Shown here: one piece after another, positions 12,720 to 63,332 of the stretch
Layout: the number at the start of each line of letters is the position of its first letter
Position numbering within the stretch: the first letter of the stretch is position 1
IMG/VR virus record: IMGVR_UViG_3300032083_001576
Coordinates: 3,013 to 67,012 of that record
Reading direction: 5' to 3' (one strand)
DNA from: a virus
DNA length: 64,000 bases
Notes under the pieces: generated by a model
The model's input: the letters and a program-made list of their open reading frames with translations, nothing else
The model's database searches: none
Told to the model about the DNA's origin: nothing
Position numbers and translations under genes: made by a program

Positions 12720-14484
12720 TAATAATCTCCAAAATTTCATCTGCAGCATCAACACAAGTTCCTATTTTACCAGAAAATATATTATAAACATTGTCAACTA
12801 CATTTTCAACCAATGTAGGTCTAGCATCATCTTTATCTTTATTTGGCAATACAGTTCTAAACGTAAACATTGAACCAATATGTTTTGCTTTGTCTATGTC
12901 TTTTAAAAATGTTTTAGCTGAATTGATAAACTTATCAATATTTGTTGTTGATGGATTTTTGACAATCCCTTTGTTTAATAAACTGTTAAACTTTGAATCA
13001 CAATCTGGAAACTTACCAACATTAGTAGAATGTATAGCATGAACAACATTACCCATAACGTGTAAGCCTGAATCTCCTAATGGGTCTATACACATAAAAG
13101 GTCCATCCATTATGACCACACTTTTATTTTTATATTTTTTTGGTAACTTAACAACTGGTTTCTCACATAACTCAAATTGATAATCTTTCTGTTTATCCTC
13201 TGGTAGTAAATGATTTAGGTTTGAATATGTGGCGTTTATTATATAGTCATCCTCTAAATTCCAGCCATCACTATTCAGAATAACATTTACATTATATTCA
13301 TTTAATTTATCCCAACAAATTTGTTTTAACTTAATCGGGTCAAATAATAATTCTTTTACTTTTACCTCTAAATCTACAACATTCTTACACATAAAGTCAA
13401 GCTTTTTCTCTTTATAGAACAAATTCATATCTCTCATAAATTCTATGTATTGTTTTGATGTAACCAAACTATCTTTTTTAGCTATACAATAGTAATGTTC
13501 AATGTCTCCATTTACAATAGCACCACCATATTCTTTTATAAAACTCGTTTCTCCCCATTGTGATTGTCTTGCAGTTTCTTTACTTCGTGGATAATGATAA
13601 CCTCTATGTAATCTATATTGATTTATGTTAGAAGCTTGACTTATTATGTCTTCATTTTTCTCGTGTAAAGTTACATCATATCCTGCTTTAGCTAGTTTCC
13701 AAGCTGTCGTGCAACCAAATACACCTCCACCAATCACAGAGACTTTTTTAAATAATTTTTTATTCAGTATATCTATAAAATCATTCGTGTATAAAGTTAT
13801 CTCTTTATTGTATTCAAAATCTACATCGTGGTTAAAGACCTTTTGTAACATTTCTTGTAATGGGTCATCAGTCCCGTCTCCCATCAAACTAACGCCGTTT
13901 ATGTGATGGGTTCTTTCACCATCATAGTTAGTATCATAACAAAACTCTATGCCAATATCATTAAACTCTATTTTGAATTGTAGTTTTTTCTCTACATCAA
14001 TTGGTGTTATTTTTTCAATCTCTGAATTTTTTATGTGTGGATATAAATAATATATATCGTGATAAGTTAATCTGTAAAGTAAGTCTTTATTTGTGTAATA
14101 CGAATGATTAAAGTTGTCTTTCTTTTTTCTTTCTATAAGATTTTCTTCCATTAAATCCCATTGAACTTCTCTCCAATTCTGAACATCATCCACATACAAC
14201 TTAACATTTCTCATATCAGCTATATCATAAAGTTTTTCTGATTGTTCTCGTGTTAGAGTAAGTGGTTTTTCACAAAATACATTTTTACCAAACCATAAAC
14301 ATTTTTTAACTATTTCGTAATGAGTTTCGTTTGGTGTTGAAACAACAACCCAATCTACATCATCGAGTTTTGATATGTAATCGTCTTTACTTCTACAAGT
14401 AAACTTAACATCACAGAATTTTTCAAGCTTTGTATAAATTATCTTACCCCAAGTTCCGTAACCTATTAATCCTACTTTAATCAA
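12712..14484 (-). CDS. Gfo/Idh/MocA oxidoreductase fused to FAD-dependent oxidoreductase
   Basis: N-terminal GYGTWG...STPNETH...FCEKP; second Rossmann IGGGVFG, RLHRGYHYPRS, FSGKI. Confidence 0.85.
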   Translation of the reverse strand: MIKVGLIGYGTWGKIIYTKLEKFCDVKFTCRSKDDYISKLDDVDWVVVSTPNETHYEIVKKCLWFGKNVFCEKPLTLTREQSEKLYDIADMRNVKLYVDDVQNWREVQWDLMEENLIERKKKDNFNHSYYTNKDLLYRLTYHDIYYLYPHIKNSEIEKITPIDVEKKLQFKIEFNDIGIEFCYDTNYDGERTHHINGVSLMGDGTDDPLQEMLQKVFNHDVDFEYNKEITLYTNDFIDILNKKLFKKVSVIGGGVFGCTTAWKLAKAGYDVTLHEKNEDIISQASNINQYRLHRGYHYPRSKETARQSQWGETSFIKEYGGAIVNGDIEHYYCIAKKDSLVTSKQYIEFMRDMNLFYKEKKLDFMCKNVVDLEVKVKELLFDPIKLKQICWDKLNEYNVNVILNSDGWNLEDDYIINATYSNLNHLLPEDKQKDYQFELCEKPVVKLPKKYKNKSVVIMDGPFMCIDPLGDSGLHVMGNVVHAIHSTNVGKFPDCDSKFNSLLNKGIVKNPSTTNIDKFINSAKTFLKDIDKAKHIGSMFTFRTVLPNKDKDDARPTLVENVVDNVYNIFSGKIGTCVDAADEILEIIND

Positions 14485-15226
14485 CTAACTCTCCATAAAA
14501 ATGTTCATATGTTTTTTTCATCCAGTAAGGCACTGATTTATCCTTATCAGGTAAACCATTAAAATGAAACACATAACCTAATTCAGTAAATAACATATCA
14601 TCATTAATAATTTCTTTTTTAGGCATACAAGTCATATTATACTCGTATGATAATAATTTAATATCAATATCGTGTCTTCTTAACATAAAATTAAGTGGTG
14701 TCTGGTCTGTGCCTATACCCCAATTACTTTGAATACTTTGAATATTATCCTTATTTTCAAAATAGAACTTTCGCATTTCATCAAAAAAAGGTCTGTGTTT
14801 TTTATTTACAATTTGGAATCCACTATTTCCATATTCCCAAAAATTAAACCATTCTCCATCAAATACATATTTTTTATAATGTTCCATTCCTCTTAAAACC
14901 CAATCATAACTTCCATCATCGTGTACTAAACAATATTTATCTTCTGTTTCTTTAAAGAAGTTTGGTGCGTCTGGATGAATTATTGTATCTGCGTCAACCA
15001 TTAATATTTGATTGTACTTTATCTCATTGTGGTCTAACATATCAAATAAAAAATATCTTTGCCATATAATGTGCATATCATTCATATCTGTGACTGGTTC
15101 TTCCATAAGAAATAGTTCAACATCATTTTTGTTACACCAATGTTTCCAAGATTTTATAGAATATTCATATTCTTTTTTTGATTGTCCATCTTTTTTTACT
15201 GCTATTATAAAAACTAAATCTTTCAT
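14477..15226 (-). CDS. glycosyltransferase (GT8/GT34-like)
   Basis: VDAD DxD, NSGF, DQTPLN, HFNG. Confidence 0.8.
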   Translation of the reverse strand: MKDLVFIIAVKKDGQSKKEYEYSIKSWKHWCNKNDVELFLMEEPVTDMNDMHIIWQRYFLFDMLDHNEIKYNQILMVDADTIIHPDAPNFFKETEDKYCLVHDDGSYDWVLRGMEHYKKYVFDGEWFNFWEYGNSGFQIVNKKHRPFFDEMRKFYFENKDNIQSIQSNWGIGTDQTPLNFMLRRHDIDIKLLSYEYNMTCMPKKEIINDDMLFTELGYVFHFNGLPDKDKSVPYWMKKTYEHFYGELVD

Positions 15227-15234
15227 AAATCTCC

Positions 15235-16593
15235 TTATTGTAGATTACAAACACAACCTTCGTTGTCTGTAAATTTTTTACCTGTGGTAACTATATTTTC
15301 TGGTGACTCTCCTATAAATTTGTTTATCTTCAATACTCCTTCATTGACTTTTTCATCTATAGCAGCTTTAACTTCACCCGGAGGTAATCCATAATCATCA
15401 AAAATAAATTCAACATCAGGCCACATTTTTAAAGCATTTTCTATATCTTGTTTAACTTGATAATATTCGTGGCCAGCGTCAATGAAAACGACATCAACTT
15501 TAGAAGGTAAAAAATCTTCCCATTTGTCAGCACAATATGTTCCTGAACCATCAGAATAATCATAAAGATTAGCTTTAATAAATTCAACATTGTCACAATC
15601 TTTACAATGATTTTTAGCTGTATCTAAATGCCATTTATCAACAGCATAAACTTTTTTAAATATTTTACTTAAATACTTCGTTGAATTACCTTGATGACAA
15701 CCTATCTCAACTAGAGTTTTATTTTTATATTTATCATTTAAAAATATATCAAGTATATCTGTTTTAAATTTCACAGATGTTGCATTTTTATTTTGATGTC
15801 TATGTTGAGTCAAACTTAATATGTCATCATATTTTGTATAGTCATAATTCTTACCTACCATATTCCAAGTATCTCTCATTATTTTAATTCTGTCCTCAAT
15901 ACTAAATCCTGTGAAATGCCATATATTAGTGTATTTAATAAAGAAAGGTGTTTTGTCTTCTCCATCTTGCCAATTATGTGAAAACATTTCCTTTCTGTGC
16001 ATATGTAACATATTCCATGTTACAGGTAATTCTTTTACTTTTATATTTTGTTTTTTTAACTGAAAGTTTAAAATAGTTTGAACTTTACCACCACCCATTT
16101 TTGCTACACCATCAATGTTGTCTTTGTTATTTTCATAAAGTTTAATTAGTTCATCAAATATACTTTTATGGTCTTTTGTAAAAAAATAAACTCCAGAGTT
16201 ATAATAATCATAAATACTCAGTTTCTGATTAGGATAAAATTGCTGAAAAATATTTATACTATTCACATTCCATCTAAGATTACCATTGTCCTTTACCCAA
16301 CAAAATTCATCATCATATAATTCAAATGGATTAGGAGCATTCCAATGAACCATTGTATCACTATCTACATAACCAAGTTTATCATATTTATCTCCTACTA
16401 TCTCAAAAATAATATCTTTATTCCAAACAGGGTACTTATATCTTTCATTGTGTTTATCGATAACAAGAAAATCAATATCATTTTTTTTACACCAAGCACT
16501 CCAAGATTTTATACAATAATCAGAATACAATGTATTTTGAAACTCTGAAGTATTGTGATTTATAGCTGTAGTGAATATTAAATTTTTGTTCAT
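15235..16593 (-). CDS. glycosyltransferase (GT8-like) fused to class I SAM methyltransferase
   Basis: VDSD, NSGV, HFTG; then EIGCHQG, FIDAGH, FDDY. Confidence 0.85.
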   Translation of the reverse strand: MNKNLIFTTAINHNTSEFQNTLYSDYCIKSWSAWCKKNDIDFLVIDKHNERYKYPVWNKDIIFEIVGDKYDKLGYVDSDTMVHWNAPNPFELYDDEFCWVKDNGNLRWNVNSINIFQQFYPNQKLSIYDYYNSGVYFFTKDHKSIFDELIKLYENNKDNIDGVAKMGGGKVQTILNFQLKKQNIKVKELPVTWNMLHMHRKEMFSHNWQDGEDKTPFFIKYTNIWHFTGFSIEDRIKIMRDTWNMVGKNYDYTKYDDILSLTQHRHQNKNATSVKFKTDILDIFLNDKYKNKTLVEIGCHQGNSTKYLSKIFKKVYAVDKWHLDTAKNHCKDCDNVEFIKANLYDYSDGSGTYCADKWEDFLPSKVDVVFIDAGHEYYQVKQDIENALKMWPDVEFIFDDYGLPPGEVKAAIDEKVNEGVLKINKFIGESPENIVTTGKKFTDNEGCVCNLQ

Positions 16594-16671
16594 TTATATA
16601 CTCTCATAAAATTTATTTTGTTTTTTATCTTTTGGTGTTACTGATGGTATTACTACTATTGGTTTACTCAT
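16594..16671 (-). CDS. chimeric mini-ORF / gene remnant MSKPIVVIPSVTPKDKKQNKFYESI (25 aa)
   Basis: GAGGT SD, ATG overlaps end of upstream gene, TAA abuts next ATG; C-terminus resembles the end of GT 18495..19115. Confidence 0.65.
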   Translation of the reverse strand: MSKPIVVIPSVTPKDKKQNKFYESI

Positions 16672-17800
16672 CACTTACCTCTACATTTTTTAAATTTTTA
16701 AACATTTCATACCAATGTAAACATAACTTATCAGAATTATATTGTTCTCTAAATTTGTTTCTAAAGTTATTTACAATATAAGAATATTTTTCGAAATTTC
16801 CAAGCACTTTTTGAATTTTTTCTTCCAAATCAGACCCATCATATTTACAAGCTATATAGGTTTCACCATCATTGTAAATATTTGGACTAGTATTTATCAT
16901 CGACATATCAGGTTTTATCATTAAAGCACCAAATTGAATAGCCTCAATGTCTCTGTAACAAATTTCACCTTGACCAAATGGTGAAAGTATAATTTTTGAA
17001 TTATACAGATTATTTAAATATTCAATTCGTTCTAAATATCCTGTTGTTACATTATAATTTAATTTATTTACTATATTACTAAAATCTTTTCTATGTTTCA
17101 TATAAAGTAAATCATTTCTAACACCGTGTTCATAACATGCAGAAATTTCTGATAAACATAGAGCTGTAACATCAATATTCTTATTTAAATTTGATGGTAG
17201 AAAACGATGTTGATGACCTTCATATACATGATATTGAGGATAAACATTATTCCACTGGTAGAACTTAGACATATAGGTATATCCAAGATTCACACCTGAC
17301 AATTTAATCTTATCCCATTTGTCTTGGGGGATGTCATAAGATTTTCCTAAATTATCGTCAACACCAAAAAACCATTTACCAGCGATATAAGGTTTATTGT
17401 AGTCTTGTTTATTATTTAACAATTGATTTTTTAACAGATATACTGCATCACTTTGTTCAAATACTTCATAACTACCAAATAGTGATGTTGAATCAAAACC
17501 ATCCCATAAAAAATAATTACCACCCTCTGTAATTTTATACAAGTTTTCTAATCCCCAATCTACACTTTCTTGTAATGGTTTATTTTTGTCGACAAAATCT
17601 GAAGGACCAACAATTATATAATCATAATCAGAAGTTTCAGCTTTTTTTCTTTCACCATATGGGATTATACCATGTTCCTCATCATGAAACAATAATTCTA
17701 TTCCATAATCAGAACGAAGTTTATGATACAAAGAGAAAAGTGGTTCAAAAGTATCCATATTTCTACCCTTTTGAAAATTTAATAATTTAACTTTAATCAT
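16664..17800 (-). CDS. putative glycosyltransferase (GT-B, YkvP/CgeB-like C-terminus)
   Basis: SKIILSPFGQGEICYRDIEAIQFGALMIKP motif. Confidence 0.75.
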   Translation of the reverse strand: MIKVKLLNFQKGRNMDTFEPLFSLYHKLRSDYGIELLFHDEEHGIIPYGERKKAETSDYDYIIVGPSDFVDKNKPLQESVDWGLENLYKITEGGNYFLWDGFDSTSLFGSYEVFEQSDAVYLLKNQLLNNKQDYNKPYIAGKWFFGVDDNLGKSYDIPQDKWDKIKLSGVNLGYTYMSKFYQWNNVYPQYHVYEGHQHRFLPSNLNKNIDVTALCLSEISACYEHGVRNDLLYMKHRKDFSNIVNKLNYNVTTGYLERIEYLNNLYNSKIILSPFGQGEICYRDIEAIQFGALMIKPDMSMINTSPNIYNDGETYIACKYDGSDLEEKIQKVLGNFEKYSYIVNNFRNKFREQYNSDKLCLHWYEMFKNLKNVEVSDE

Positions 17801-17883
17801 ATGGTATCGTAGAAATCATTTTGTTTTTCTTGTCTATCTGATGTTGTCAATATTACAATATCATAATTTAATTTTTCTGACAT
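17797..17883 (-). CDS. chimeric mini-ORF / gene remnant MSEKLNYDIVILTTSDRQEKQNDFYDTI (28 aa)
   Basis: GGAGG SD, overlaps upstream stop, TGA overlaps next ATG; last 13 aa match end of GT 18495..19115. Confidence 0.72.
   Translation of the reverse strand: MSEKLNYDIVILTTSDRQEKQNDFYDTI
17816..17839. repeat. 24-bp direct repeat, copy 2 (tcattttgtttttcttgtctatct)
   Basis: Identical to 18514..18537. Confidence 0.95.
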
Positions 17884-18473
17884 ATTATACCCTCCCAATC
17901 AAGTAATTTTTTTCCAACACCAACTCGTGGTTCGTTACCTTTAGGTTCTCCTATATACTTAATTACTTTTAATTTACCATTATTTATATATTCATCAATA
18001 CCTAATTTAACCTCTGGAATTAAACCATAATCATCAAATATTAAAACAACATCATCAGTTCCCTTTTCAAATGAGGTATTTATATCCATAATTACATGTT
18101 GTTTGTCATGTACAGCATCAATTAAAAATACATCATATTTCTCTACATTGCCATCACCATTCCACCAATTGTTTGAACTAATAATCTCTTTAGCATAAAT
18201 ATCTTTATTTTGATACTCTATATTATCTCTATCTTTATTTAAATTTTTAGCATAAGTTATTAAGTCATCATCTATATCCACTGTCTTAACTTTTTCAAAC
18301 AAAAAACTTAAAATACGGGTTGTGTATCCCCTAGATGTGCCAATCTCAAAACATTTTTTATCTAAATATTTATCACCACAAAAATTTATTATATCTTTTT
18401 TCATTACTAACGATGTTGTGTTTTTGTCTTGTCTTTTGTCAGGTATATTTTTTAATATAAAATCTATATCCAT
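17868..18473 (-). CDS. class I SAM-dependent methyltransferase
   Basis: EIGTSRG, LIDAVH, FDDYG; paralogous to the C-terminal domain of 15235..16593. Confidence 0.85.
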   Translation of the reverse strand: MDIDFILKNIPDKRQDKNTTSLVMKKDIINFCGDKYLDKKCFEIGTSRGYTTRILSFLFEKVKTVDIDDDLITYAKNLNKDRDNIEYQNKDIYAKEIISSNNWWNGDGNVEKYDVFLIDAVHDKQHVIMDINTSFEKGTDDVVLIFDDYGLIPEVKLGIDEYINNGKLKVIKYIGEPKGNEPRVGVGKKLLDWEGIICQKN

Positions 18474-18494
18474 TATAACCTCCTGTTTTGTTTT

Positions 18495-19115
18495 TTATAT
18501 TGTGTTATAAAACTCATTTTGTTTTTCTTGTCTATCTATTGTCTTCGGGTGATAGAACGAAAATTGTTCCTCTGCTGGTAAAAACGTATGTTCTTTATAT
18601 CCTGTTAATACTTCGTGTACTTTATTTTTCCACATAATGTTAGGTCGATTTCTCCAAATCCTACCTTGATAATCAGGAAAGTTTACCCAACCTTTTTCGT
18701 TCACATTCCAACCCCATTTATTAATATGTTCTTGTGTGATACCATCAACTGTGTTAACTCGTGGCACCCAATATAAATCTACTGTGGGATTTGATTGTAA
18801 TATTGGTTTAATGTTTTTTATTAATTGTTTGTGTGGTAATTCATCTGCATCAAGATTAAAAATGTAATCACCCGTGCACATATTTTTTAAATAATTTTTT
18901 TGTCCACCATAATCTTTTAACAAATGTCTTTGTTCAAAAATCATTTCGTGCATTGATGTCATTACATCTAATATCTCAATTGTTTTAGGATTGTCTGAAT
19001 AATCATCAAGAATTACTATCTCATCTTCTTCGTCTTTGTGTTTGACTAAAAACTCTAATAACTTTAGTAATGAATCATCTTCATTATGAGTCAATATACT
19101 ATAACTTATTTTCAT
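18495..19115 (-). CDS. glycosyltransferase family 2 (anchor gene of the variable island)
   Basis: LDDYS, LDADE DxD, PDYQGRI, VHE. Confidence 0.9.
   Translation of the reverse strand: MKISYSILTHNEDDSLLKLLEFLVKHKDEEDEIVILDDYSDNPKTIEILDVMTSMHEMIFEQRHLLKDYGGQKNYLKNMCTGDYIFNLDADELPHKQLIKNIKPILQSNPTVDLYWVPRVNTVDGITQEHINKWGWNVNEKGWVNFPDYQGRIWRNRPNIMWKNKVHEVLTGYKEHTFLPAEEQFSFYHPKTIDRQEKQNEFYNTI
18514..18537. repeat. 24-bp direct repeat, copy 1 (inside 3' end of GT2)
   Basis: Identical to 17816..17839; degenerate third copy at about 16594..16638. Confidence 0.95.
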
Positions 19116-19598
19116 TTATAACCCTTTGTAAATTTCTTTTAAAGCTTTTGATTGGAAGTTCCATTTAATTTGTTTTGCTGATTTTACTCTTGTGTATTTG
19201 TAAGTCCTCCAACAATCAAATCTATTCAACACTTTAGCTTTAATAATTGGTTTATAAACTAAATTTGGTCTTATACCAGCGTCTTCTTCCTCATATATAT
19301 TCATCTTTGGAAATTTACTTTGTTTATCTAATTCCCAACCAGTTTTAGTTCCCATAGCTTGAAAAAACTTTTCAACTTCTGTGTGTGGCATATGATTAAG
19401 ATTAAGTCCGTGAAAAAGTTTTTTGTCTCTTGTACCATATTCATCAGTATCCACAACAAAAACTAAAGGTATGGATTTATCATTGTTTCTATCTCTATAT
19501 TGAAATTCAATAATCATTCCACTCTTAATATTCATTGGTGATATTGACTTCTTATCATTTCTACCTGAGTAAAATCTTCTATGTCTTGAATTTCTCAT
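19116..19598 (-). CDS. possible T4 gp2-like DNA end protector
   Basis: F-x-Y...PLVF...FHGLNLNHMP resembles gp2 GLNLHYLP motif. Confidence 0.45.
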   Translation of the reverse strand: MRNSRHRRFYSGRNDKKSISPMNIKSGMIIEFQYRDRNNDKSIPLVFVVDTDEYGTRDKKLFHGLNLNHMPHTEVEKFFQAMGTKTGWELDKQSKFPKMNIYEEEDAGIRPNLVYKPIIKAKVLNRFDCWRTYKYTRVKSAKQIKWNFQSKALKEIYKGL

Positions 19599-20062
19599 TA
19601 TTTATTTTTTTCTTTTAGAATTTTATTAATTGTTGTCATGCCTTCAATAAATAAATCATAAACAACAGCGTTATCTGTATCTATTTTTCTCTCGTAAAAT
19701 CCACCTTGTTCATTGGGAAAGTTTTCCCTTTCTTCCTCTGGTATGTCAACCATTGGTGCGAACGCCCATTTCATAACTTTATCTTCTTTATCATTTGGAA
19801 CTGTAATATTCACAGGATACAACATACCAATTGGTAATGTGATTATACTTGGAATCCAAACTTTACCATTTGATTCAACGGCCCAATTCTTCATATCTTC
19901 ACCAAGTTTTTGGAACTCTTCATTTGTTTCTTTCGTACCTGTGAATTTGGTTGATGTTGTATAACCACAATTGATACACTGCATCACTTGTGCTTTTTCT
20001 GTTCCTGCAACGTGTAAAGCTCTTTCTTCACATAAGGGACAATTACTTATTATGTCTTTCAT
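19598..20062 (-). CDS. zinc-ribbon hypothetical protein
   Basis: CPLC...CINCG. Confidence 0.7.
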   Translation of the reverse strand: MKDIISNCPLCEERALHVAGTEKAQVMQCINCGYTTSTKFTGTKETNEEFQKLGEDMKNWAVESNGKVWIPSIITLPIGMLYPVNITVPNDKEDKVMKWAFAPMVDIPEEERENFPNEQGGFYERKIDTDNAVVYDLFIEGMTTINKILKEKNK

Positions 20063-21402
20063 ACTGTAGCCTCATTTGTTACTTTCTTTAATTTAGGTAA
20101 TTTTATTTTAGGTGGTTCTGAATTACTAACTTTTTGTAATTTAGGTAATTGTAACCCAACTTGTTGAGGGACTTTGTCCACAATCGGTGTAATGATTTTA
20201 CCAAGTTTTTCTGTCATTTTATCTAATGTAAACTTTTCTCTATTGATTTTCATTAAATTTAATGCTTTTTCTTTTACTTCATCATAGTTTTGAAAACAAT
20301 AATTCATAGCTCTGTAAGCTTGTGTTTCATTTACGTTAAACCATTGTGATTCAGGTATGACTATGTCTTTCCACACTTGAGACTTTGGAACTTGAACTAA
20401 TTCACCACCCAATAACATTGAATCTGTTTCTGATAAGAAATCCATTTGTCCACTCCAAGCACTCGCGATTACAGGTAACCCAACCATTGAAGCTTCTAAT
20501 AAAGGTCTTCCGAATCCTTCACCGTGTGTTAATGAAACAAAACATTTTACCTTTGGATGATTATATAATTTATTCATTTCCTCTGTTGATAAAGAACCAT
20601 GTAGTAAATAAACATTTGGTAGATTCCAATCTTTTGGAAACATTGATTTAATTTCATTTATTTTTCTTAAACACTCTTCTCTATCTAATATTGAAAATGT
20701 CGCTCCAGCAGTTTTTAATATTAACGCTGGTTGTTCTTTTTTATTTGCAAATGATTCATAAAACAATTTAACTAATTTTGATATATCTTTTCTATCTTCA
20801 CCAAATCCACCTTTACCCCACAATCCAACGTGTAAAAATGCAAAATCCTCTTTTATATCATCAACTAAATCTAAGGATGAATCATCAAGTGGTTTAAATA
20901 TATTTTCATCAACACCCTCAAATAACACTTCAATTGGTTTTTCTAATTTCAACTCACCAACTTTTTGTTGTTGTCCATTTGGTAATTGTTGCATTTTTTC
21001 ATAAAGAGCTTTTACAAATCCGTCTTTTGAGTGTTCTGATGGTGTGATGATTAAATCCATTTTGTTACAACCCTCTATCCAATTATTTGAGACAGTCGTT
21101 GTTTCAATACCAGCGGTTATTCCAATATTAACCTCACCATAAGTTTGAAATTCATTTGGTATTCTAATGTCTACATACACGTTTGGTTTTTTATCCATCT
21201 TTGGTTCTGGTAAAATACAATCAATAATGTTTTTATCTAATTCAATGTCTAAAGCATTTCTTGGACATTCTCCCCAAGGCACATCAAGTATTTTTACATC
21301 AAACTTACCTAAGTTTATAAAAGAACGAACTAAATCTCTAGCGTGGTCACCATACCCACTTCTTGATGAAACAGGTGCACATATTAACATAACTTTTTTC
21401 AT
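20059..21402 (-). CDS. glycosyltransferase family 4
   Basis: SRSGYG, RKD, GEGFGRPLLEA; start placed at ATG 21402 with GGAGG SD. Confidence 0.9.
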   Translation of the reverse strand: MKKVMLICAPVSSRSGYGDHARDLVRSFINLGKFDVKILDVPWGECPRNALDIELDKNIIDCILPEPKMDKKPNVYVDIRIPNEFQTYGEVNIGITAGIETTTVSNNWIEGCNKMDLIITPSEHSKDGFVKALYEKMQQLPNGQQQKVGELKLEKPIEVLFEGVDENIFKPLDDSSLDLVDDIKEDFAFLHVGLWGKGGFGEDRKDISKLVKLFYESFANKKEQPALILKTAGATFSILDREECLRKINEIKSMFPKDWNLPNVYLLHGSLSTEEMNKLYNHPKVKCFVSLTHGEGFGRPLLEASMVGLPVIASAWSGQMDFLSETDSMLLGGELVQVPKSQVWKDIVIPESQWFNVNETQAYRAMNYCFQNYDEVKEKALNLMKINREKFTLDKMTEKLGKIITPIVDKVPQQVGLQLPKLQKVSNSEPPKIKLPKLKKVTNEATV

Positions 21403-22829
21403 TACACAACCTCCAATGTATATTGTTCTCTTGGTTTCCATTTCTCTAAACAAGTATCTATATTTTTAATAAATGATTCTGACATATGTTTAGCAGTCAT
21501 TCTACCTTCATTGTTTACAAATTGTCTTCCCAACTCACCACATCTTTTTCTTTCTTCAGGACCCACTTTATACCATTCTAATAATGCTTCACCTGCATCT
21601 TCATAACTACATCTATCATCAAAGATGTATGGTGTTAATGGTGAACCTTGACAACTTATGTTTGATGGAAAAACAGGTTTAACCCATTCACCATGATTCA
21701 CATAAGTTCCTCTGTGGTTAGATTGTAATTCAACATACTCTTCAGCAGTTAAATATTCACCTTTGTTGTTTTTAAATCCACATTGGTCTTGTAATCCACC
21801 TGTGACATTTACTACGATACAACCACCCGTATGTAACATCTCACAACTACCTAATCCAAATCCCTCATTGGAAGCCATATTGATATAAACATCACAAGAG
21901 TTAAACACAAAGTTCATTTCCTCATCATTAAACGAACCGTTAGGATGATTATCGTGTGTGAATATAACTGGATAATCAGGTAGAAGAGTTTTACACACAG
22001 CTCTCATATCAGTCCCATTCTCATCACTTGGAGCTGCATGCCAAACTAAACAACAATCTTTTCTTTTCTCTGGTGATAATTTATCCATCATATGTTTGTA
22101 AGCGAGAGCAACATCACCTGGTGATTTTCTTCTAATGTTACGATTTAAATATAAAACTTTAAATTTATATTTGTCTAATCCCATTTTTTGTTCAAATTCT
22201 CTAAACTTGGTGTCACCTTTATCTTGAATTTTGTGTATTCTTTTATCAGTTATTCCGTGAGGAACATAATCTGTTTGCCAATCTTCATAACCATATTTAG
22301 AAAGTATTCTTTTGTTAATACCATATGTTTGTTTTGATATTGACATTAACAAGTCTGAACTTCTATAATAGTTTGTATTGTATAATGGGTCTGGAATATC
22401 GTCCCAAATATTATAATACATAATAGGTATGTGTTGTCTTACTTCATGTTCCATATTATATAACCAAATCCAAAATCTTGGGTCTGTAAAGTGCATTATG
22501 ACATCTGGCTTTTCCATATCAAGAATTTGTCTTAACAATTGTGGATTACCGTAACCAGATATTGGATATATTTTTAGATATGCATCATCAATACCATATT
22601 CATTTTTTACAGCGTGACTCATATCTATGATTTTACCCTCTTCTGGATGTTTTACAGCACCACCTAATTGAACCCAATCGTATTTATGTAATGTTCCCAT
22701 CACAAATTCTTTTGACTGAGTGGCTATTCCACTGTGCATTCTCAAATCATCTGATAAAAGTAGAATCTTTTTCTTCTTTACTTTGTTTGGATTTGCTTTT
22801 TTTAATTTTGGAAGTTGAATTTGACTCAT
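21402..22829 (-). CDS. glycosyltransferase family 4
   Basis: SGIA, NRNIRRK, NEGFGLGSCE, TGGLQDQ. Confidence 0.9.
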   Translation of the reverse strand: MSQIQLPKLKKANPNKVKKKKILLLSDDLRMHSGIATQSKEFVMGTLHKYDWVQLGGAVKHPEEGKIIDMSHAVKNEYGIDDAYLKIYPISGYGNPQLLRQILDMEKPDVIMHFTDPRFWIWLYNMEHEVRQHIPIMYYNIWDDIPDPLYNTNYYRSSDLLMSISKQTYGINKRILSKYGYEDWQTDYVPHGITDKRIHKIQDKGDTKFREFEQKMGLDKYKFKVLYLNRNIRRKSPGDVALAYKHMMDKLSPEKRKDCCLVWHAAPSDENGTDMRAVCKTLLPDYPVIFTHDNHPNGSFNDEEMNFVFNSCDVYINMASNEGFGLGSCEMLHTGGCIVVNVTGGLQDQCGFKNNKGEYLTAEEYVELQSNHRGTYVNHGEWVKPVFPSNISCQGSPLTPYIFDDRCSYEDAGEALLEWYKVGPEERKRCGELGRQFVNNEGRMTAKHMSESFIKNIDTCLEKWKPREQYTLEVV

Positions 22830-35417: not shown

Positions 35418-36474
35418 TCAATCCTCTAAATCTATCTAATCTTGTAAACTCCATAATCCAACTATCAAAGTTTTTTATATTAGATTGTAACTTATCCTTT
35501 ATAAACATTGTTTGAAATCTATACTTAACCAATTGTGGAACTTTACCATTCACCGCTCCTTGTATCTTCATTTTTGTATGATTCGGTATATCCACTTTAT
35601 TTAATTGCATTAGTAAATAATTTCGTTTAATAATATTACTACTTTTTTTTATATTTTCCAAGAGTTTTATTTTAGAATCTGTATTTTCTACAAAATTTAA
35701 TAAATCCATAGCTGTGAAATCTTCATCTTCTGTTAATTGTGGAATATATTTTATTAAGGATTTCAAACCAGCTCCTAGTACTCCGTTGATATTATCTGAT
35801 TTATCCCCATCCAAGATTCTATATGTTAACATATTTCTTGATGGTATTCCAAACTCTTCCAATACTGCTTGTTTATTATATAACTTCTTTTTCGTAGGAC
35901 TCCATACTTTCACTCTATCATCTACTAATTGTAAGAAGTCTTTATCTGTTGACATCAATATACAATCACTTTCTGGTAGTAATTGTTGTGAGATGTAAGC
36001 CATTGTGTCGTCTGCTTCAATTCCATCAACTGACACAAGTGTTAATGGTAATTGTTCCAAGTATTCAATCAATCTACCCATTTGTTGTCTCATAGATTGT
36101 TGTTCATCGGCTGGAGCTGTTCCCCAATCCACATTACGATTCAATCTACGTTTAACTTTACGAGTTCCTTTATACTCTGGAAAAATCTTTCTTCTTCTTT
36201 TACTTCCACCTTTTCCGTCAAATACAATGATACATCTTGATGGTTTCAATATATCACAACTATATCTAACTGATTTCATAAAACCAACCATACCACCAAT
36301 ATGTAATCCATCTTCATTTAACGCAGGATTAACTGCGAATGACCTGATAAATGTATTCAGGCCATCCACAATCAATACTCTGTCGTTAAGATGATTTACA
36401 GCTTTGTGTGTATCATCTTTTGTTTGGTCTAAAAAAGATAAATATTTTTCATTTAAATCTTTTTTAGAGTTCAT
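35410..36474 (-). CDS. 5'-3' exonuclease / RNase H (FEN-like)
   Basis: VDGLN, FDG, YKGTR, EADD, STDKDFLQL, GDKSDNI. Confidence 0.93.
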   Translation of the reverse strand: MNSKKDLNEKYLSFLDQTKDDTHKAVNHLNDRVLIVDGLNTFIRSFAVNPALNEDGLHIGGMVGFMKSVRYSCDILKPSRCIIVFDGKGGSKRRRKIFPEYKGTRKVKRRLNRNVDWGTAPADEQQSMRQQMGRLIEYLEQLPLTLVSVDGIEADDTMAYISQQLLPESDCILMSTDKDFLQLVDDRVKVWSPTKKKLYNKQAVLEEFGIPSRNMLTYRILDGDKSDNINGVLGAGLKSLIKYIPQLTEDEDFTAMDLLNFVENTDSKIKLLENIKKSSNIIKRNYLLMQLNKVDIPNHTKMKIQGAVNGKVPQLVKYRFQTMFIKDKLQSNIKNFDSWIMEFTRLDRFRGLNG

Positions 36475-37582
36475 CCACTACCTCATCGGTTTCTTCCACA
36501 TCATCAATACCAAGTTCTTGTGAATCATATTTTAGAATACAAGCTTCACAGATTCTTGAATAACAATACTCTCTGAGTTCATCATTAGTATTCATTAATT
36601 CTTCGAAATCTTTTGATTGAAATTTGTGTTCTTTAATTAATTCACCAGTTTCAGTATCAATCTGTGGTAATGTATACCAAGAACCACCAACTTTACAGAT
36701 TTTGTGTTCTTTCATTACAGTTAACCAACTATCAAAATCAGCGATACCTTTATCAAAATACAATGGAAACTCTGCAGTTCTCATTGGTGGACCAAGACGA
36801 TTCTTAATCACCTGTCCTTTGATTTTAATACCGATGGTGTTCTTACTACCATCTTTGATTTGTCCAGCGTTTTTGAACCTAACACGAGTCGATGAATGAA
36901 ACGGTAGAGCTTTACCACCTGATGTAGTCCAGGGGTCTCCAAACATTACACCTAACTTTTGTCTTAACTGATTAGTGAAAACAAGTGCGACTTTTTGTCT
37001 AGCAATCATTTGAGTTATTTTTCTCATAGCTTTTGATATGATGATTGCTTTGGCCGTAGCCCAACCATCTTTATCAAAGTCAGCGTCCATTTCTACTTTC
37101 GTAGAAGCAGCTGCTAATGAGTCAACTAAAATAGTTACTAACTTGTCCTTATTTGATTCTCTGATTTTAGTAACAATCGTTTCAATAGTATCAAATATTT
37201 CTTCAACAGTTTCCAAGTGAACATATAACATTTTCTTAGTATCCACACCAATAGCTCTCAAAAATTCTTGAGATACTGCTGATTCGGTATCTATGTAAAC
37301 TGCTATACCATCTTTTCTTTGTGTTGAAGCCAATAAATGAGAACCTATCAAAGACTTACCACTACCTTCCAAACCATTCAATTCTGTTATTTTACCTACA
37401 CCAATACCTCCATTAGGTCTATTGGAAATAGCTAAATCTAACATTGTTGAACCTGTTGAAATGAAATCCGTCACATCAGTTGGATTACTATCTTCTTCTA
37501 AGAAGTATGCAACTTGTTGATGTTTGAATTGTTTATTCAGTTCATCGGCAATTATCCCAGCCAATTCGTCTTTTTCTGACAT
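36464..37582 (-). CDS. uvsX: RecA/UvsX recombinase
   Basis: GLEGSGKS, YIDTE, VDSLAA, NQLR, SGGKAL, KNR. Confidence 0.95.
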   Translation of the reverse strand: MSEKDELAGIIADELNKQFKHQQVAYFLEEDSNPTDVTDFISTGSTMLDLAISNRPNGGIGVGKITELNGLEGSGKSLIGSHLLASTQRKDGIAVYIDTESAVSQEFLRAIGVDTKKMLYVHLETVEEIFDTIETIVTKIRESNKDKLVTILVDSLAAASTKVEMDADFDKDGWATAKAIIISKAMRKITQMIARQKVALVFTNQLRQKLGVMFGDPWTTSGGKALPFHSSTRVRFKNAGQIKDGSKNTIGIKIKGQVIKNRLGPPMRTAEFPLYFDKGIADFDSWLTVMKEHKICKVGGSWYTLPQIDTETGELIKEHKFQSKDFEELMNTNDELREYCYSRICEACILKYDSQELGIDDVEETDEVVDEL

Positions 37583-62315: not shown

Positions 62316-63332
62316 TTAAAGTAATCCAGCAAGTTTTCTAAACCTGTCAGCAACTTGATTTTCTTCAGAAATCACTTTACGAGATTCATCAGATGGTTTA
62401 GTTGAACCGACAGCAGAACTAGCTGATTCACTTATTGATTTTTTTGTTACAGTTGAGCCATCATAATTGAACTGTTCTGCAAGTGTAGAATAAACAAGTT
62501 TAATCTCTCTTGTAGTTTGTGCTCTATCAAATGTTTCAACCACTTTAAGTTTTTGGTTATTATCTAAACTATATTGTTTGAACAATTTATTTGTAAACAA
62601 TAATTTAGCATTCAAGATGTTAACTTCGTGAAGTTTATCTTTTAAGAAAACAACTGCTTCTTTGTATTCTTTCAATTCAGCTTCAATGTCAGAAGATTCT
62701 TTCATACCAGTTTTACCTTTACCGATACCTGATGATACGTCTGTATTATCTGTTTTGTTATCACCTTTGCCGATACCAGATGATTTATCTAATTCTTCAT
62801 CAACAGTATCTTCATCTTCTTCAAGAGCAGCTTCATCGATTTCATACTCTTCTTCGATTTCTTCAGATTCATCCATGTGTTCACCTTCTTCAGCATCATC
62901 ATCTTCACCTTCAGATAATTCATCCTCAAGTTCTTTAATGATAGCTTCTAAATCAAGGTTTCCTTCATCCATGTCGTCATCTTCGTCATGCATTCCTTCT
63001 TCAGCTTCATCGTCATGCATTCCTTCTTCTCTTTCTTCAACATCATCCTCATCATCTTCGTAAACACCTTCTTCACGCTCATCACCTTCTTCAGCTTCAT
63101 CATCGTGTTCACCCTCTTCAGCGTGTTCACCTTCTTCAGCTTCATCATCGTGTTCGCCTTCATCGTGCATACCTTCATCTTCTACATCGTCTTCTTCCTC
63201 TTTCAATTTAGCTGACAACATAGATTTGATTTGAGGTGTGAATGCTTCTTCTAATGCCATCTTTGCATTTTCTAATGCAGTTTCTCTAACCGCTTTAGCA
63301 TCTGCAATGGCTTCTTTTAAAATATCTCCCAT
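62316..63332 (-). CDS. prohead scaffolding / core protein (gp22-like) with acidic repeats
   Basis: Directly upstream of capsid gene, extremely acidic centre, coiled-coil ends, C-terminal RFRKLAGL. Confidence 0.8.
   Translation of the reverse strand: MGDILKEAIADAKAVRETALENAKMALEEAFTPQIKSMLSAKLKEEEDDVEDEGMHDEGEHDDEAEEGEHAEEGEHDDEAEEGDEREEGVYEDDEDDVEEREEGMHDDEAEEGMHDEDDDMDEGNLDLEAIIKELEDELSEGEDDDAEEGEHMDESEEIEEEYEIDEAALEEDEDTVDEELDKSSGIGKGDNKTDNTDVSSGIGKGKTGMKESSDIEAELKEYKEAVVFLKDKLHEVNILNAKLLFTNKLFKQYSLDNNQKLKVVETFDRAQTTREIKLVYSTLAEQFNYDGSTVTKKSISESASSAVGSTKPSDESRKVISEENQVADRFRKLAGLL
62966..63190 (-). repeat. imperfect coding repeats EEG(M/E)HDDEA
   Basis: Repeated cttcttcagcttcatc units at about 62996, 63086 and 63131. 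Confidence 0.8.

What the first reader, a model, noticed from the sequence alone, without database searches (positions are those of the whole stretch)
16594..18545. Polarised gene-cassette accretion at the 3' end of an anchor glycosyltransferase (integron-like scars)
Seen: the GT2 gene 18495..19115 ends ...DRQEKQNEFYNTI*. One gene downstream, an unannotated 28-codon ORF (17797..17883) consists of a foreign N-terminus (MSEKLNYDIVILTTS) fused to DRQEKQNDFYDTI*. It shares a 24-bp exact repeat with the GT2 end (17816..17839 = 18514..18537). One gene further, a second mini-ORF (16594..16671) is MSKPIVVIPSVT fused to a more decayed copy, PKDKKQNKFYESI*. Both mini-ORFs keep an SD, a start overlapping the previous gene and a stop abutting the next ATG. 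Inference: new glyco-genes are repeatedly inserted immediately behind the anchor gene, each arriving with the 5' stub of its donor's next gene and displacing the previous anchor tail downstream. The closest copy is the least diverged, giving an age gradient as in integrons or CRISPR arrays, and in-frame scars would preserve translational coupling. No integrase is visible in the window, so UvsX-mediated homologous recombination on one side plus microhomology on the other is a candidate mechanism.
Basis: partly seen in the sequence, partly recalled or inferred. Interest (0 to 1): 0.88.

Follow-up and report, generated by a model that had tools for sequence, protein, structure and literature searches.

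The report
Recombination scars in phage sugar island
Two tiny leftover genes in a marine phage are seams where pieces of related phages were spliced together just behind a conserved sugar-transfer gene, so they show how this variable gene island gained genes rather than revealing a new insertion machine.

Summary
Downstream of the conserved GT2 gene (18495..19115, minus strand) lie two mini-ORFs, 17797..17883 and 16594..16671. Each carries a copy of the GT2 3' tail, including a 24-nt exact repeat.

Its stub, MSEKLNYDIVILTTS, is the N-terminus of a 221-aa gene X. In two metagenome relatives X follows the orthologous methyltransferase from the same embedded ATG. The tail plus the GT378 start matches the GT2|GT378 junction of relatives.

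Three parts of the interpretation fail:
- There is no age gradient. The mini2 tail is 40/42 identical to another GT2 allele, apart from a 12-nt in-frame deletion.
- There is no integrase, att-like hairpin or promoter/terminator cassette.
- No such scar occurs in about 1.6 Mb of related loci.

The order of the two events cannot be determined, and the source of stub 2 was not found.

Best reading: these are two illegitimate (unequal) crossovers between related co-infecting myoviruses at the core/island boundary. They were probably kept in frame because the downstream genes depend on translational coupling. Independent contigs from other studies carry the same arrangement. Interest is moderate.

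The parts
19116..22829 (-). Conserved core upstream of the island: 475-aa gene, GT4-type glycosyltransferase (464 aa), Zn-ribbon protein (154 aa) and a 160-aa protein
   Evidence: Pfam PF00534 hit for the 464-aa protein. tblastn finds these genes in this order before GT2 in nearly all 80 IMG/VR loci. Flavobacterium phage immuto has the same order.
18495..19115 (-). Anchor gene: GT2 glycosyltransferase, 206 aa, the last conserved gene before the variable island
   Evidence: PF00535, E 1.3e-13. 193 relatives were found in IMG/VR and 80 fetched. The N-terminus MKISY.. and the tail ..QEKQN.FY..I* are conserved in the family. Contigs of other phages diverge at 18487-18497, i.e. at the stop codon (table 7).
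18497..18542 (-). GT2 3' tail, the original of the repeated element; the 24-nt exact repeat lies at 18514..18537
   Evidence: the repeat finder D1; exact identity check.
17868..18473 (-). Stand-alone methyltransferase MT201 (201 aa) with its own AGGAGG Shine-Dalgarno, 21 nt after the GT2 stop
   Evidence: PF13578. Orthologues of 66-67% identity in L156-L158. Sequence read.
17839..17883 (-). Stub 1: the first 15 codons of the lost gene X. The first 5 codons overlap the MT201 3' end.
   Evidence: 11/15 aa and 34/45 nt identical to the start of the 221-aa gene that follows the MT201 orthologue in L156, and 10/15 aa in L157. Same embedded ATG and Shine-Dalgarno.
17797..17838 (-). Tail copy 1: 13 codons plus stop of a GT2 3' end. 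Its TGA overlaps the ATG of the next gene.
   Evidence: 35/42 nt to the window's own GT2, 38/42 to the alleles of L014 and L078. The junction ..ATATGATTAAAGT.AAA continues as in the GT2|GT378 junctions of L001, L006 and L015.
16664..17800 (-). 378-aa putative glycosyltransferase (GT378). In relatives it is often the first island gene directly after GT2.
   Evidence: Weak hit to PF24785 RXYLT1_C, E 1e-4, below the cut-off. Homologues of 33-51% identity directly follow GT2 in 8 of 80 loci.
16636..16671 (-). Stub 2: 12 codons of an unidentified lost gene. Its ATG overlaps the GT378 end by 8 nt.
   Evidence: Sequence. Only weak likeness to N-termini of the 249-aa family (E 0.04-0.5). No source found.
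16594..16635 (-). Tail copy 2: a GT2 3' end of the L009/L008/L157 allele type with a 12-nt in-frame internal deletion. Its TAA abuts the next ATG.
   Evidence: The gapped alignment CCAAAAGATA[12-nt gap]AAAAACAAAATAAATTTTATGAGAGTATATAA matches L009 at 40/42 nt, score 57 against 36 for the window's own GT2. The TAAATG junction is the same as in L008 and L009.
15235..16593 (-). 452-aa fusion protein: an N-terminal domain paralogous to the next gene, plus a C-terminal methyltransferase domain paralogous to MT201
   Evidence: PF13578 at residues 295-400. Repeat families D2 and D3. The fusion followed by a 245-258-aa gene recurs as a pair in L099, L116, L117, L120, L126-L128 and L137.
14477..15226 (-). 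249-aa protein with no Pfam family, second member of the conserved pair
   Evidence: An orthologue stands in the same order in L082.

Best explanation
The two mini-ORFs are seams left by two illegitimate (unequal) recombination events between related, co-infecting marine myoviruses. These phages share a conserved core ending in the GT2 gene but carry different glycan-gene islands behind it.

In each event a crossover ran from a point 12-15 codons into the second island gene of one parent to a point 14-18 codons before the GT2 stop of the other parent. The product keeps the left parent's GT2, its first island gene and the stub of its next gene. This is fused to the right parent's GT2 tail and the whole of its island.

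Scar 1 joins [MT201 + 15 codons of gene X] to [GT2 tail + GT378...]. Scar 2 joins [GT378 + 12 codons of an unknown gene] to [GT2 tail + 452-aa gene...].

Inferred, not shown:
- The GT2 tail was retained because it carries the translation-initiation context of the first island gene. That context is the ATGA stop/start overlap for GT378, and GAG.G plus TAAATG for the 452-aa gene.
- The stub-tail fusions and a later 12-nt deletion stayed in frame because ribosomes that start at the stub's own Shine-Dalgarno/ATG must terminate at the original stop to re-initiate on the next gene.

No site-specific machinery is involved. The phage's general recombination system (a RecA/UvsX-like gene is present) plus microhomology would suffice.
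For: 1. Stub 1 is the start of a real gene.
- In L156 and L157 (MT201 orthologues, 67% identity) a 221-aa ORF begins at the same ATG, 16 nt inside the methyltransferase 3' end, behind the same GGGAGG-type Shine-Dalgarno.
- It reads MSKSLSYDIVILTTAV.. and MSEGLSYDLVVLTTAV...
- Identity is 34/45 nt over codons 1-15 and is lost from codon 16, where identity to GT2 tails begins.
- The same gene family follows 39%-identical methyltransferases in L108, L111 and L125.

2. The tails come from other GT2 alleles, not from in-place duplication and decay.
- mini1 matches L014 and L078 at 38/42 nt against 35/42 for its own GT2 (rank 7 of 56).
- mini2 matches L009 at 40/42 nt after a 12-nt gap. Its own GT2 scores 36 against 57.

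3. Tail and downstream gene form one inherited block.
- The mini1 junction ACCATATGATTAAAGTTAAAT equals the GT2|GT378 junction of L001, L006 and L015.
- The mini2 junction has the TAAATG geometry of L008 and L009.

4. The core/island boundary sits at the GT2 stop.
- Upstream genes are syntenic in nearly all 80 loci while downstream content varies.
- Relatives show short C-terminal extensions.
- Contigs of other phages in three runs depart at 18487-18497.

5. There are no recombinase or att signals. A RecA/UvsX-like gene lies at about 36464..37582.

6. Coupling.
- With the mini-ORFs counted, all 24 junctions among the genes from 22829 down to 1083 are 21 nt or less. Without them there would be gaps of 70 and 67 nt.
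- GT378 has no Shine-Dalgarno and an ATGA overlap, both here and in relatives.
- Three of three length-changing events are in frame. The chance value is 1/27.

7. The arrangement is real in nature.
Against: - The source of stub 2 was not found. Two degenerate DNA scans of IMG/VR gave 0 hits and there is no close GT378 relative. Scar 2 therefore rests on the tail alone.
- The parents themselves are not sampled. The nearest MT201 is 67% identical and the nearest GT378 51%.
- Two scars in one genome and none in about 155 related loci is unexpected for independent rare events. It hints at a lineage-specific cause that I cannot name.
- Both scars have similar sizes, with stubs of 12 and 15 codons and about 28-29 nt between the preceding stop and the tail. 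The simple model explains this only by selection or later trimming.
- The in-frame argument rests on three events (p about 0.04).
- Translation of the mini-ORFs is not shown. No RNA or ribosome data were examined.
- The exact join of scar 1 is uncertain by one codon (TCA). No clear microhomology longer than about 3 nt could be assigned without the true parent.
Confidence: 0.78

Rival explanations
1. Integron- or CRISPR-like polarised accretion. A dedicated or quasi-site-specific process inserts each new cassette immediately behind GT2, pushing older tails downstream, so that distance from the anchor equals age.
For: Three GT2 tails stand in series on one strand. Each added unit is one gene plus a stub. 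GT2 is the fixed boundary of a variable island.
Against: - No PF00589 integrase in the 67-kb record, which is only 36% complete.
- No inverted repeats at any junction, no Rfam family, and no promoter or terminator enrichment.
- Breakpoints differ: tail lengths of 14 versus about 18 codons and stubs of 15 versus 12 codons.
- There is no age gradient. The distal tail is 40/42 identical to an extant allele and the proximal one 38/42.
- The same structure arises if the distal join happened last.
- No further scars occur in about 1.64 Mb of relatives.
Confidence: 0.04
2. The mini-ORFs are remnants of full-length GT2 paralogues that once stood between the island genes and lost their middle by in-frame internal deletions.
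For: Both stubs look like a Rossmann-type first beta-strand (..DIVILTT....IVVIPS..), as GT2 N-termini do. The tails are GT2 tails.
Against: - Stub 1 is the N-terminus of gene X, a non-GT2 family with no Pfam hit, which follows the methyltransferase in relatives.
- The GT2 family N-terminus MKISY[SA]I.. is nearly invariant down to 48% identity and is unlike either stub.
- Stub 1 DNA against the GT2 5' end ranks only 3rd of 60 gene starts (3.1% of random 60-mers score as high). Stub 2 ranks 26th of 60.
Confidence: 0.04
3. The tail remnants are kept for a function of their own. They could be small proteins that carry the conserved GT2 C-terminal motif. They could also be dispersed homology patches, playing the role of PeSL-like linkers, that let any relative's GT2 3' end recombine at inner positions of the island.
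For: - The tails are well preserved, at 38/42 and 40/42 nt to extant alleles.
- Both are in frame with a working start and stop.
- The 24-nt exact repeat would allow loop-out of MT201, restoring GT2|GT378.
- Logan contigs branch inside the tails and depth rises there in X1 and X9.
Against: - No relative keeps such mini-ORFs.
- mini2 has lost the family-invariant Q196 through the 12-nt deletion.
- No joint that skips MT201 was seen in four runs, although contigs drop rare variants.
- 24-42 nt is short for efficient homologous exchange. This last point is recalled and was not tested.
Confidence: 0.1
4. Assembly chimera: the repeats made an assembler join pieces of different phages.
For: Short-read assemblies of mixed phage populations can join at shared 24-46-nt repeats. 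Logan contigs do break at 16647-16650, 17790-17819 and 18534-18536.
Against: A single 4961-nt contig in run X5 spans 15200..18534 without a difference. A 1890-nt contig in X1 spans 16647..18536. Depth is flat across the region in each run. 19 runs from at least 7 studies hold 88% or more of the sampled words.
Confidence: 0.02

Closest known systems
'Novel joints' of phage genome mosaicism: illegitimate recombination followed by selection (the Hendrix model; recalled). Related work on recombination between diverged sequences: PMC2327257 and PMC8136500, seen as listings and abstract starts only.
   Same: There is an abrupt switch of ancestry at or near gene boundaries. The two sides have separate relatives in different genomes. 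No site-specific signals are present. Functional gene order is preserved.
   Different: Here the joints lie inside coding sequence and leave translatable in-frame stub-tail ORFs. Two are stacked at one core/island boundary. The retained piece is the 3' end of the conserved boundary gene, which carries the start context of the next gene.
PeSL-mediated modular shuffling in hyperplastic regions of T4-type phages (Arbiol et al. 2010, PMC2839356, abstract read; PMC4122927, listing only)
   Same: Short repeated sequences flank single-gene insertions, deletions and replacements in variable regions of large myoviruses. A repeat pair could loop out a gene.
   Different: PeSLs are promoter plus stem-loop terminator cassettes in intergenic DNA. 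Here the repeat is a coding gene tail with no promoter or terminator signal and no hairpin. It is not dispersed in relatives.
Integron gene-cassette arrays (in phages: PMC9892861, listing and abstract start only)
   Same: Promoterless genes in one orientation are added next to a fixed anchor.
   Different: There is no IntI, no attI or attC, the breakpoints are not fixed, and the feature does not recur in relatives.
Hypervariable glycosyltransferase-rich islands of marine myophages (pelagimyophages and cyanomyophages; Zaragoza-Solas et al. 2020, PMC7029224, passages read)
   Same: A large non-syntenic island rich in glycosyltransferase and sugar-nucleotide genes is flanked by conserved modules in marine T4-like myoviruses.
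   Different: That paper describes the islands' content and proposed role, not seams or a mechanism of gain, in the passages I read. Its island lies in the structural region. This phage is nearest to Flavobacterium phage immuto (major capsid protein 50% identical), not shown to be a pelagimyophage.
Translational coupling by stop/start overlap (ATGA, TAATG) in compact operons (general knowledge, recalled)
   Same: 24 of 24 junctions in this gene row are 21 nt or less apart. Many are 1-, 4- or 8-nt overlaps.
   Different: Here short chimeric ORFs with no evident protein function appear to serve only as the link in the chain. This is inferred, not tested.

Membership tests
Integron / gene-cassette array | IntI-type tyrosine recombinase next to the array | tested here: not met
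   PF00589 has no match in the 67-kb record, while the control genomes all matched. The record is only 36% complete, so absence from the whole phage is not shown.
Integron / gene-cassette array | attC-type imperfect inverted repeats at each cassette boundary, and an attI site | tested here: not met
   None of the 16 inverted-repeat pairs in 16400-18700 lies at a junction. No Rfam match at E up to 1 in 14000-20000. I did not check that Rfam holds an attC model.
Integron / gene-cassette array | Newest cassette nearest the anchor (polarity) | tested here: inconclusive
   Tail identities to the best alleles are 38/42 (proximal) and 40/42 (distal), so there is no gradient. Either order of events gives the same structure.
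Illegitimate-recombination joint of phage mosaicism | The two sides of the joint have separate homologues in different genomes | tested here: met
   Scar 1: the left side matches methyltransferase plus gene X of L156 and L157, and the right side matches the GT2 tail plus GT378 of L001, L006 and L015. Scar 2: only the right side is matched, to the L009 and L008 alleles.
Illegitimate-recombination joint of phage mosaicism | Abrupt end of similarity with little or no homology at the joint | tested here: met
   The three-way codon display shows X-like sequence through codon 14-15 and GT2-tail-like sequence from the next codon on. Any shared sequence at the join is about 3 nt or less.
PeSL regulatory cassettes of T4-type phages | Sigma-70-like early promoter plus stem-loop terminator flanking the variable gene | tested here: not met
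   44 promoter-like sites against 46.7 expected, and 1 terminator-like site against 1.1 expected, none of them at the junctions. No hairpins at the junctions.
Glycosyltransferase family 2 (anchor gene) | Match to PF00535 above the gathering score | tested here: met
   51.7 bits against a cut-off of 23.3, residues 7-140.
Translationally coupled gene pair | Stop of the upstream ORF overlaps or abuts the start of the downstream ORF | tested here: met
   mini1 TGA with GT378 ATG (ATGA), and mini2 TAA followed directly by ATG.
Translationally coupled gene pair | Downstream translation depends on upstream translation | not testable with these tools
   This needs reporter fusions or ribosome profiling. 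No RNA runs were examined.

The most novel reading that the evidence does not exclude
The retained GT2 tails are not inert scars. They would be working adaptor modules doing two jobs:
- Because the first gene of many islands has no ribosome-binding site of its own and re-initiates from the GT2 stop, the last 14-18 codons of GT2 travel with it as a portable start signal.
- Each copy also offers any related phage's GT2 3' end a patch of homology inside the island.

Together this would give a recombinase-free, cassette-like way to add, swap or loop out single glycan genes. Selection would keep each seam as a short in-frame 'linker ORF'.
Probability: 0.15. Interest if true: 0.7.

Novelty: new variant of a known kind. 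Interest (0 to 1): 0.45.

Why it matters
Variable glycan-gene islands of marine myoviruses are thought to shape host-surface modification and phage competition (PMC7029224, passages read). How they gain genes is usually inferred only from presence or absence.

Here both sides of one gain event can be read at the base level:
- the donor side, a methyltransferase plus the first 15 codons of its usual neighbour;
- the recipient side, a GT2 tail plus its usual neighbour.

This shows gain of one gene at a time by an unequal, non-homologous join between related phages.

The in-frame seams suggest a testable rule: in tightly coupled phage operons only joins that keep the ribosome relay intact survive. 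That rule would constrain where mosaic boundaries can lie. It would also explain some of the very short 'hypothetical' ORFs that gene callers skip or annotate without function.

Tried and rejected
- Stub 1 as a diverged GT2 N-terminus: local DNA alignment ranks the GT2 5' end 3rd of 60 gene starts, and 3.1% of random 60-mers score as high. Rejected.
- Stub matches among ORF N-termini of the 80 GT2 loci and the 71 methyltransferase loci with blastp-short. Nothing convincing for stub 1. Only weak hits of stub 2 to the 249-aa family.
- Degenerate DNA scan for NYDIVILTT in IMG/VR: 1 hit (L155), internal to a doubtful ORF. Spurious.
- Scans for KPIVVIPSVT and MSKPIVVIP: 0 hits.
- Single-protein IMG/VR scans with MT201, the 452-aa protein and GT378 gave 0, 1 (L082) and 1 (L159, 41% identity) loci.
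- Extra DNA conservation of the tail beyond what coding explains. Third-position entropy is lowest there (0.87), but the codons are two-fold and AT-biased, so there is no case for a separate DNA element.
- Search for further tail copies in relatives, none real:
  - each locus's own tail in 48 loci gave 10 hits at 27/42 or more, including 3 in the window, against 18 expected;
  - the peptide pattern;
  - 1511 gene tails gave 2 hits, namely the window's mini1 and a low-complexity repeat in L009, against 2 control hits. A first run at 30/36 was too strict and missed even mini1.
- Alleles lacking MT201. No joint between 17816-17839 and 18514-18537 appeared in runs X1, X5, X9 and X20. The joints listed had sides of 36 letters or less and lie elsewhere. 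Contigs drop rare variants, so this shows nothing either way.
- X20 (share 0.20) holds only patches of the stretch.
- Gene X is not found elsewhere in the 67-kb record. The tool warns that an empty answer shows little.
- Pfam gave nothing for X, the 243-aa gene or the 249-aa family. My label 'GTx' for that family is therefore a guess from DxD-like motifs.
- Literature searches surfaced no description of in-frame stub-tail seam ORFs. These were four keyword searches of an open-access library and do not prove absence.
- Supplements of the papers were not opened.

Full report
**What is there**

The window is part of a 67-kb record of a marine myovirus with about 30% G+C. It carries a tail sheath, a T4-type major head protein, a family-B DNA polymerase and a RecA/UvsX-like gene. 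The nearest cultured relative is Flavobacterium phage immuto, whose major capsid protein is 50% identical. All genes lie on the minus strand.

The gene row runs from 22829 down to 18495: a 475-aa gene, a GT4 glycosyltransferase, a Zn-ribbon protein, a 160-aa protein and a 206-aa GT2 glycosyltransferase (PF00535). Downstream, from 18473 to about 569, lies a row of sugar-nucleotide and glycan genes. These include a GDP-mannose dehydratase, a DegT aminotransferase, WbqC, PIG-L and epimerases.

**Checking the observation**

- GT2 ends ..DRQEKQNEFYNTI*.
- 17797..17883 reads MSEKLNYDIVILTTS + DRQEKQNDFYDTI*.
- 16594..16671 reads MSKPIVVIPSVT + PKDKKQNKFYESI*.

The repeat finder groups the three tails as one 46-nt family. 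The 24-nt exact repeat is confirmed.

The tail peptide pattern is found nowhere else in the window. In about 1.64 Mb of related DNA it occurs only at the ends of GT2 genes, plus two spurious short ORFs.

The arrangement is not an assembly artefact. A 4961-nt contig of an independent run covers 15200..18534 without a difference, and 19 runs of at least 7 studies hold the stretch.

**The neighbourhood in relatives**

193 IMG/VR stretches encode a relative of the GT2, and the best 80 were fetched. In nearly all of them the upstream genes stand in the same order, while the genes after GT2 differ from locus to locus. Phage immuto shows the same plan.

The boundary sits at the GT2 stop:
- Several relatives carry a few extra C-terminal residues.
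- In three sequencing runs, contigs of other phages match the GT2 gene and depart from the window at 18487-18497 (table 7).

The GT2 family keeps a nearly invariant N-terminus (MKISY[SA]I..) and the tail ..[RK]QEKQN.FY..[IL]*.

A homologue of the 378-aa gene directly follows GT2 in 8 of 80 loci. In 7 of these it does so through an ATGA stop/start overlap.

**Scar 1 resolved**

A scan of metagenome contigs with MT201 found three relatives, L156-L158, at 66-67% identity. L157 and L158 together show this order: core, GT2, a 243-aa gene, the methyltransferase, a 221-aa gene X, a 248-aa gene, and onward.

Gene X starts at an ATG 16 nt inside the methyltransferase 3' end, behind GGGAGG. This is exactly where mini1 starts. 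X reads MSKSLSYDIVILTTAV.. in L156 and MSEGLSYDLVVLTTAV.. in L157. Stub 1 shares 11/15 and 10/15 residues with these, and 34/45 nt with L156. The likeness ends at codon 15, where identity to GT2 tails begins.

The same X family (28% identity, E 1e-24) follows more distant methyltransferases in L108, L111 and L125. X has no Pfam family. It is not found elsewhere in the 67-kb record.

On the other side of the joint, the mini1 tail and the first codons of GT378 (..ACCATATGATTAAAGTTAAAT) run on just as the GT2|GT378 junction does in L001, L006 and L015.

Scar 1 is therefore a join of [GT2, MT201, X codons 1-15] to [GT2 codons -14 to stop, GT378...]. The exact join is uncertain by one codon, and I could not assign microhomology longer than about 3 nt.

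**Scar 2**

The mini2 tail looked 'more decayed' only when compared with the window's own GT2 (29/42 nt). Aligned with gaps to all GT2 alleles, it is CCAAAAGATA, then a 12-nt gap, then AAAAACAAAATAAATTTTATGAGAGTATATAA. That is 40/42 nt identical to the L009 allele and close to L008, L076 and L157. It shares their TAAATG junction to the next gene.

It is therefore a well-kept copy of a different GT2 allele that later lost four codons in frame.

The mini1 tail likewise fits other alleles better than its own GT2: 38/42 to L014 and L078 against 35/42. With 56 alleles to choose from, that smaller difference alone is weak evidence.

The source of stub 2 was not found. It resembles N-termini of the 249-aa family only weakly.

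**Mechanism**

The simplest account is one unequal, non-homologous crossover per scar between two collinear, related genomes in a mixed infection. The crossover runs from a point early in the second island gene of one parent to a point shortly before the GT2 stop of the other. The product keeps a whole GT2, gains one gene, and keeps the entire island of the right-hand parent.

Shown:
- The ancestry of both sides of scar 1 and of the right side of scar 2.
- The different allelic origin of the tails.
- The absence of integrase, att-like repeats, Rfam families and promoter/terminator cassettes.

Inferred:
- The number of steps. A larger insertion trimmed by later deletions would look the same, and the 12-nt deletion shows that trimming occurs.
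- The enzyme. A RecA/UvsX-like gene is present.

**Why the tail, and why in frame**

GT378 has no Shine-Dalgarno sequence and starts in the ATGA overlap with whatever ORF precedes it, both here and in relatives. The L008- and L009-type tails hold GAGGGA nine bases before the next ATG. The last codons of GT2 are therefore the start context of the first island gene and would have to travel with it.

Each stub keeps the Shine-Dalgarno and ATG of the lost gene, which lie inside the preceding gene. With the mini-ORFs counted, all 24 junctions among the genes from 22829 down to 1083 are 21 nt or less apart. Without them there would be two gaps of about 70 nt.

Both fusions and the 12-nt deletion are in frame, for which the chance value is 1/27. 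I read the mini-ORFs as linker ORFs that keep a ribosome relay intact. This is an inference, and translation was not examined.

**What does not hold**

- There is no age gradient.
- Polarity cannot be told. The proximal join may have come last, into a genome that already had scar 2, or the distal join may have come last, within the gene that followed GT378.
- The feature is not a common mode of island growth that leaves traces. No other tail copy exists in 78 complete GT2 loci, in 76 further loci (L083-L159 without L154), or in a generic scan of 1511 gene tails. In that scan there were 2 hits, the window's mini1 and a low-complexity repeat, against 2 control hits.
- Two scars in one genome and none elsewhere remains unexplained.
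- Internal deletion of GT2 paralogues is rejected for scar 1, because the stub belongs to gene X and the GT2 N-terminus is invariant and different.

**Comparison with what is known**

Variable glycosyltransferase-rich islands in marine myophages are described in PMC7029224 (passages read). Repeat-mediated single-gene shuffling in T4-type hyperplastic regions works through promoter-terminator cassettes (PeSLs; PMC2839356, abstract read). These are absent here. Mosaic joints by illegitimate recombination are the standard model of phage evolution (recalled; related papers seen as listings).

The new elements are the readable anatomy of the joints, their stacking at one boundary, and the in-frame linker ORFs. 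My four literature searches did not surface a description of such seams, but that is not proof of absence.

**Verdict**

- Observation: confirmed.
- Interpretation: partly supported. The scars and their make-up stand. The integron-like polarity and the age gradient do not.
- Novelty: a new variant of a known kind.
- Interest: moderate. It is a clean natural record of gene gain in a phage island and yields a testable idea about translational coupling shaping mosaic boundaries.

Noticed in passing
L088-L150 (methyltransferase loci); window 17868..17883: In 21 of 71 methyltransferase loci the next gene starts at an ATG 16 nt inside the conserved 3' end (..EGIICQxx*). The downstream genes are unrelated to one another: 228-240-aa 'MS.K..YTSIFG' proteins, 397-aa proteins and 307-aa proteins. 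The embedded start thus serves many different neighbours.
   Followed up: partly
window 15235..16593; L082:3998-4756; L008:6376-7869; L061:8644-10119: The methyltransferase domain appears in four forms. It stands alone (MT201). It is fused behind a domain paralogous to the 249-aa protein (452 aa here), although the L082 orthologue lacks the methyltransferase domain. It is fused behind an unrelated N-terminal domain (497 aa in L008). It is fused in front of that same domain (491 aa in L061). This is domain shuffling within these islands.
   Followed up: partly
L004, L013, L018, L020, L026, L028-L042, L046, L058, L061 (GT2 3' ends): Many GT2 relatives end with 1-12 extra residues after the conserved ..FY..I. 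In L061 the stop is lost and the gene runs 12 codons on, overlapping the methyltransferase start. This suggests the island boundary often falls within the last codons.
   Followed up: partly
window 16647..16650 and 17790..17819: Logan contigs of runs X1 and X9 break at the same places inside the two scars. Summed depth rises there (for example 31 against 12, and 23.5 against 10, in X9). This suggests co-occurring phages that share these short stretches but differ on one side.
   Followed up: no
window 62983..63136 and 51396 / 54743: The other repeated 20-mers in the window are a cluster of close direct repeats inside ORF 62316..63332 and one 20-mer shared between 51396 and 54743.
   Followed up: no
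window 20074..20153; L009:7006-7050: The C-terminal end of the GT4 glycosyltransferase carries tandem copies of a ..LPKLKK.. motif (48-nt spacing). The same motif is seen in L009.
   Followed up: no
L160 (Flavobacterium phage immuto 43406-62026): The cultured phage immuto has the same core of glycosyltransferase, glycosyltransferase, hypothetical protein and GT2, followed by its own glycan island (aminotransferase, methyltransferase, mannosyltransferase and others). It could serve as a laboratory model for this locus.
   Followed up: partly
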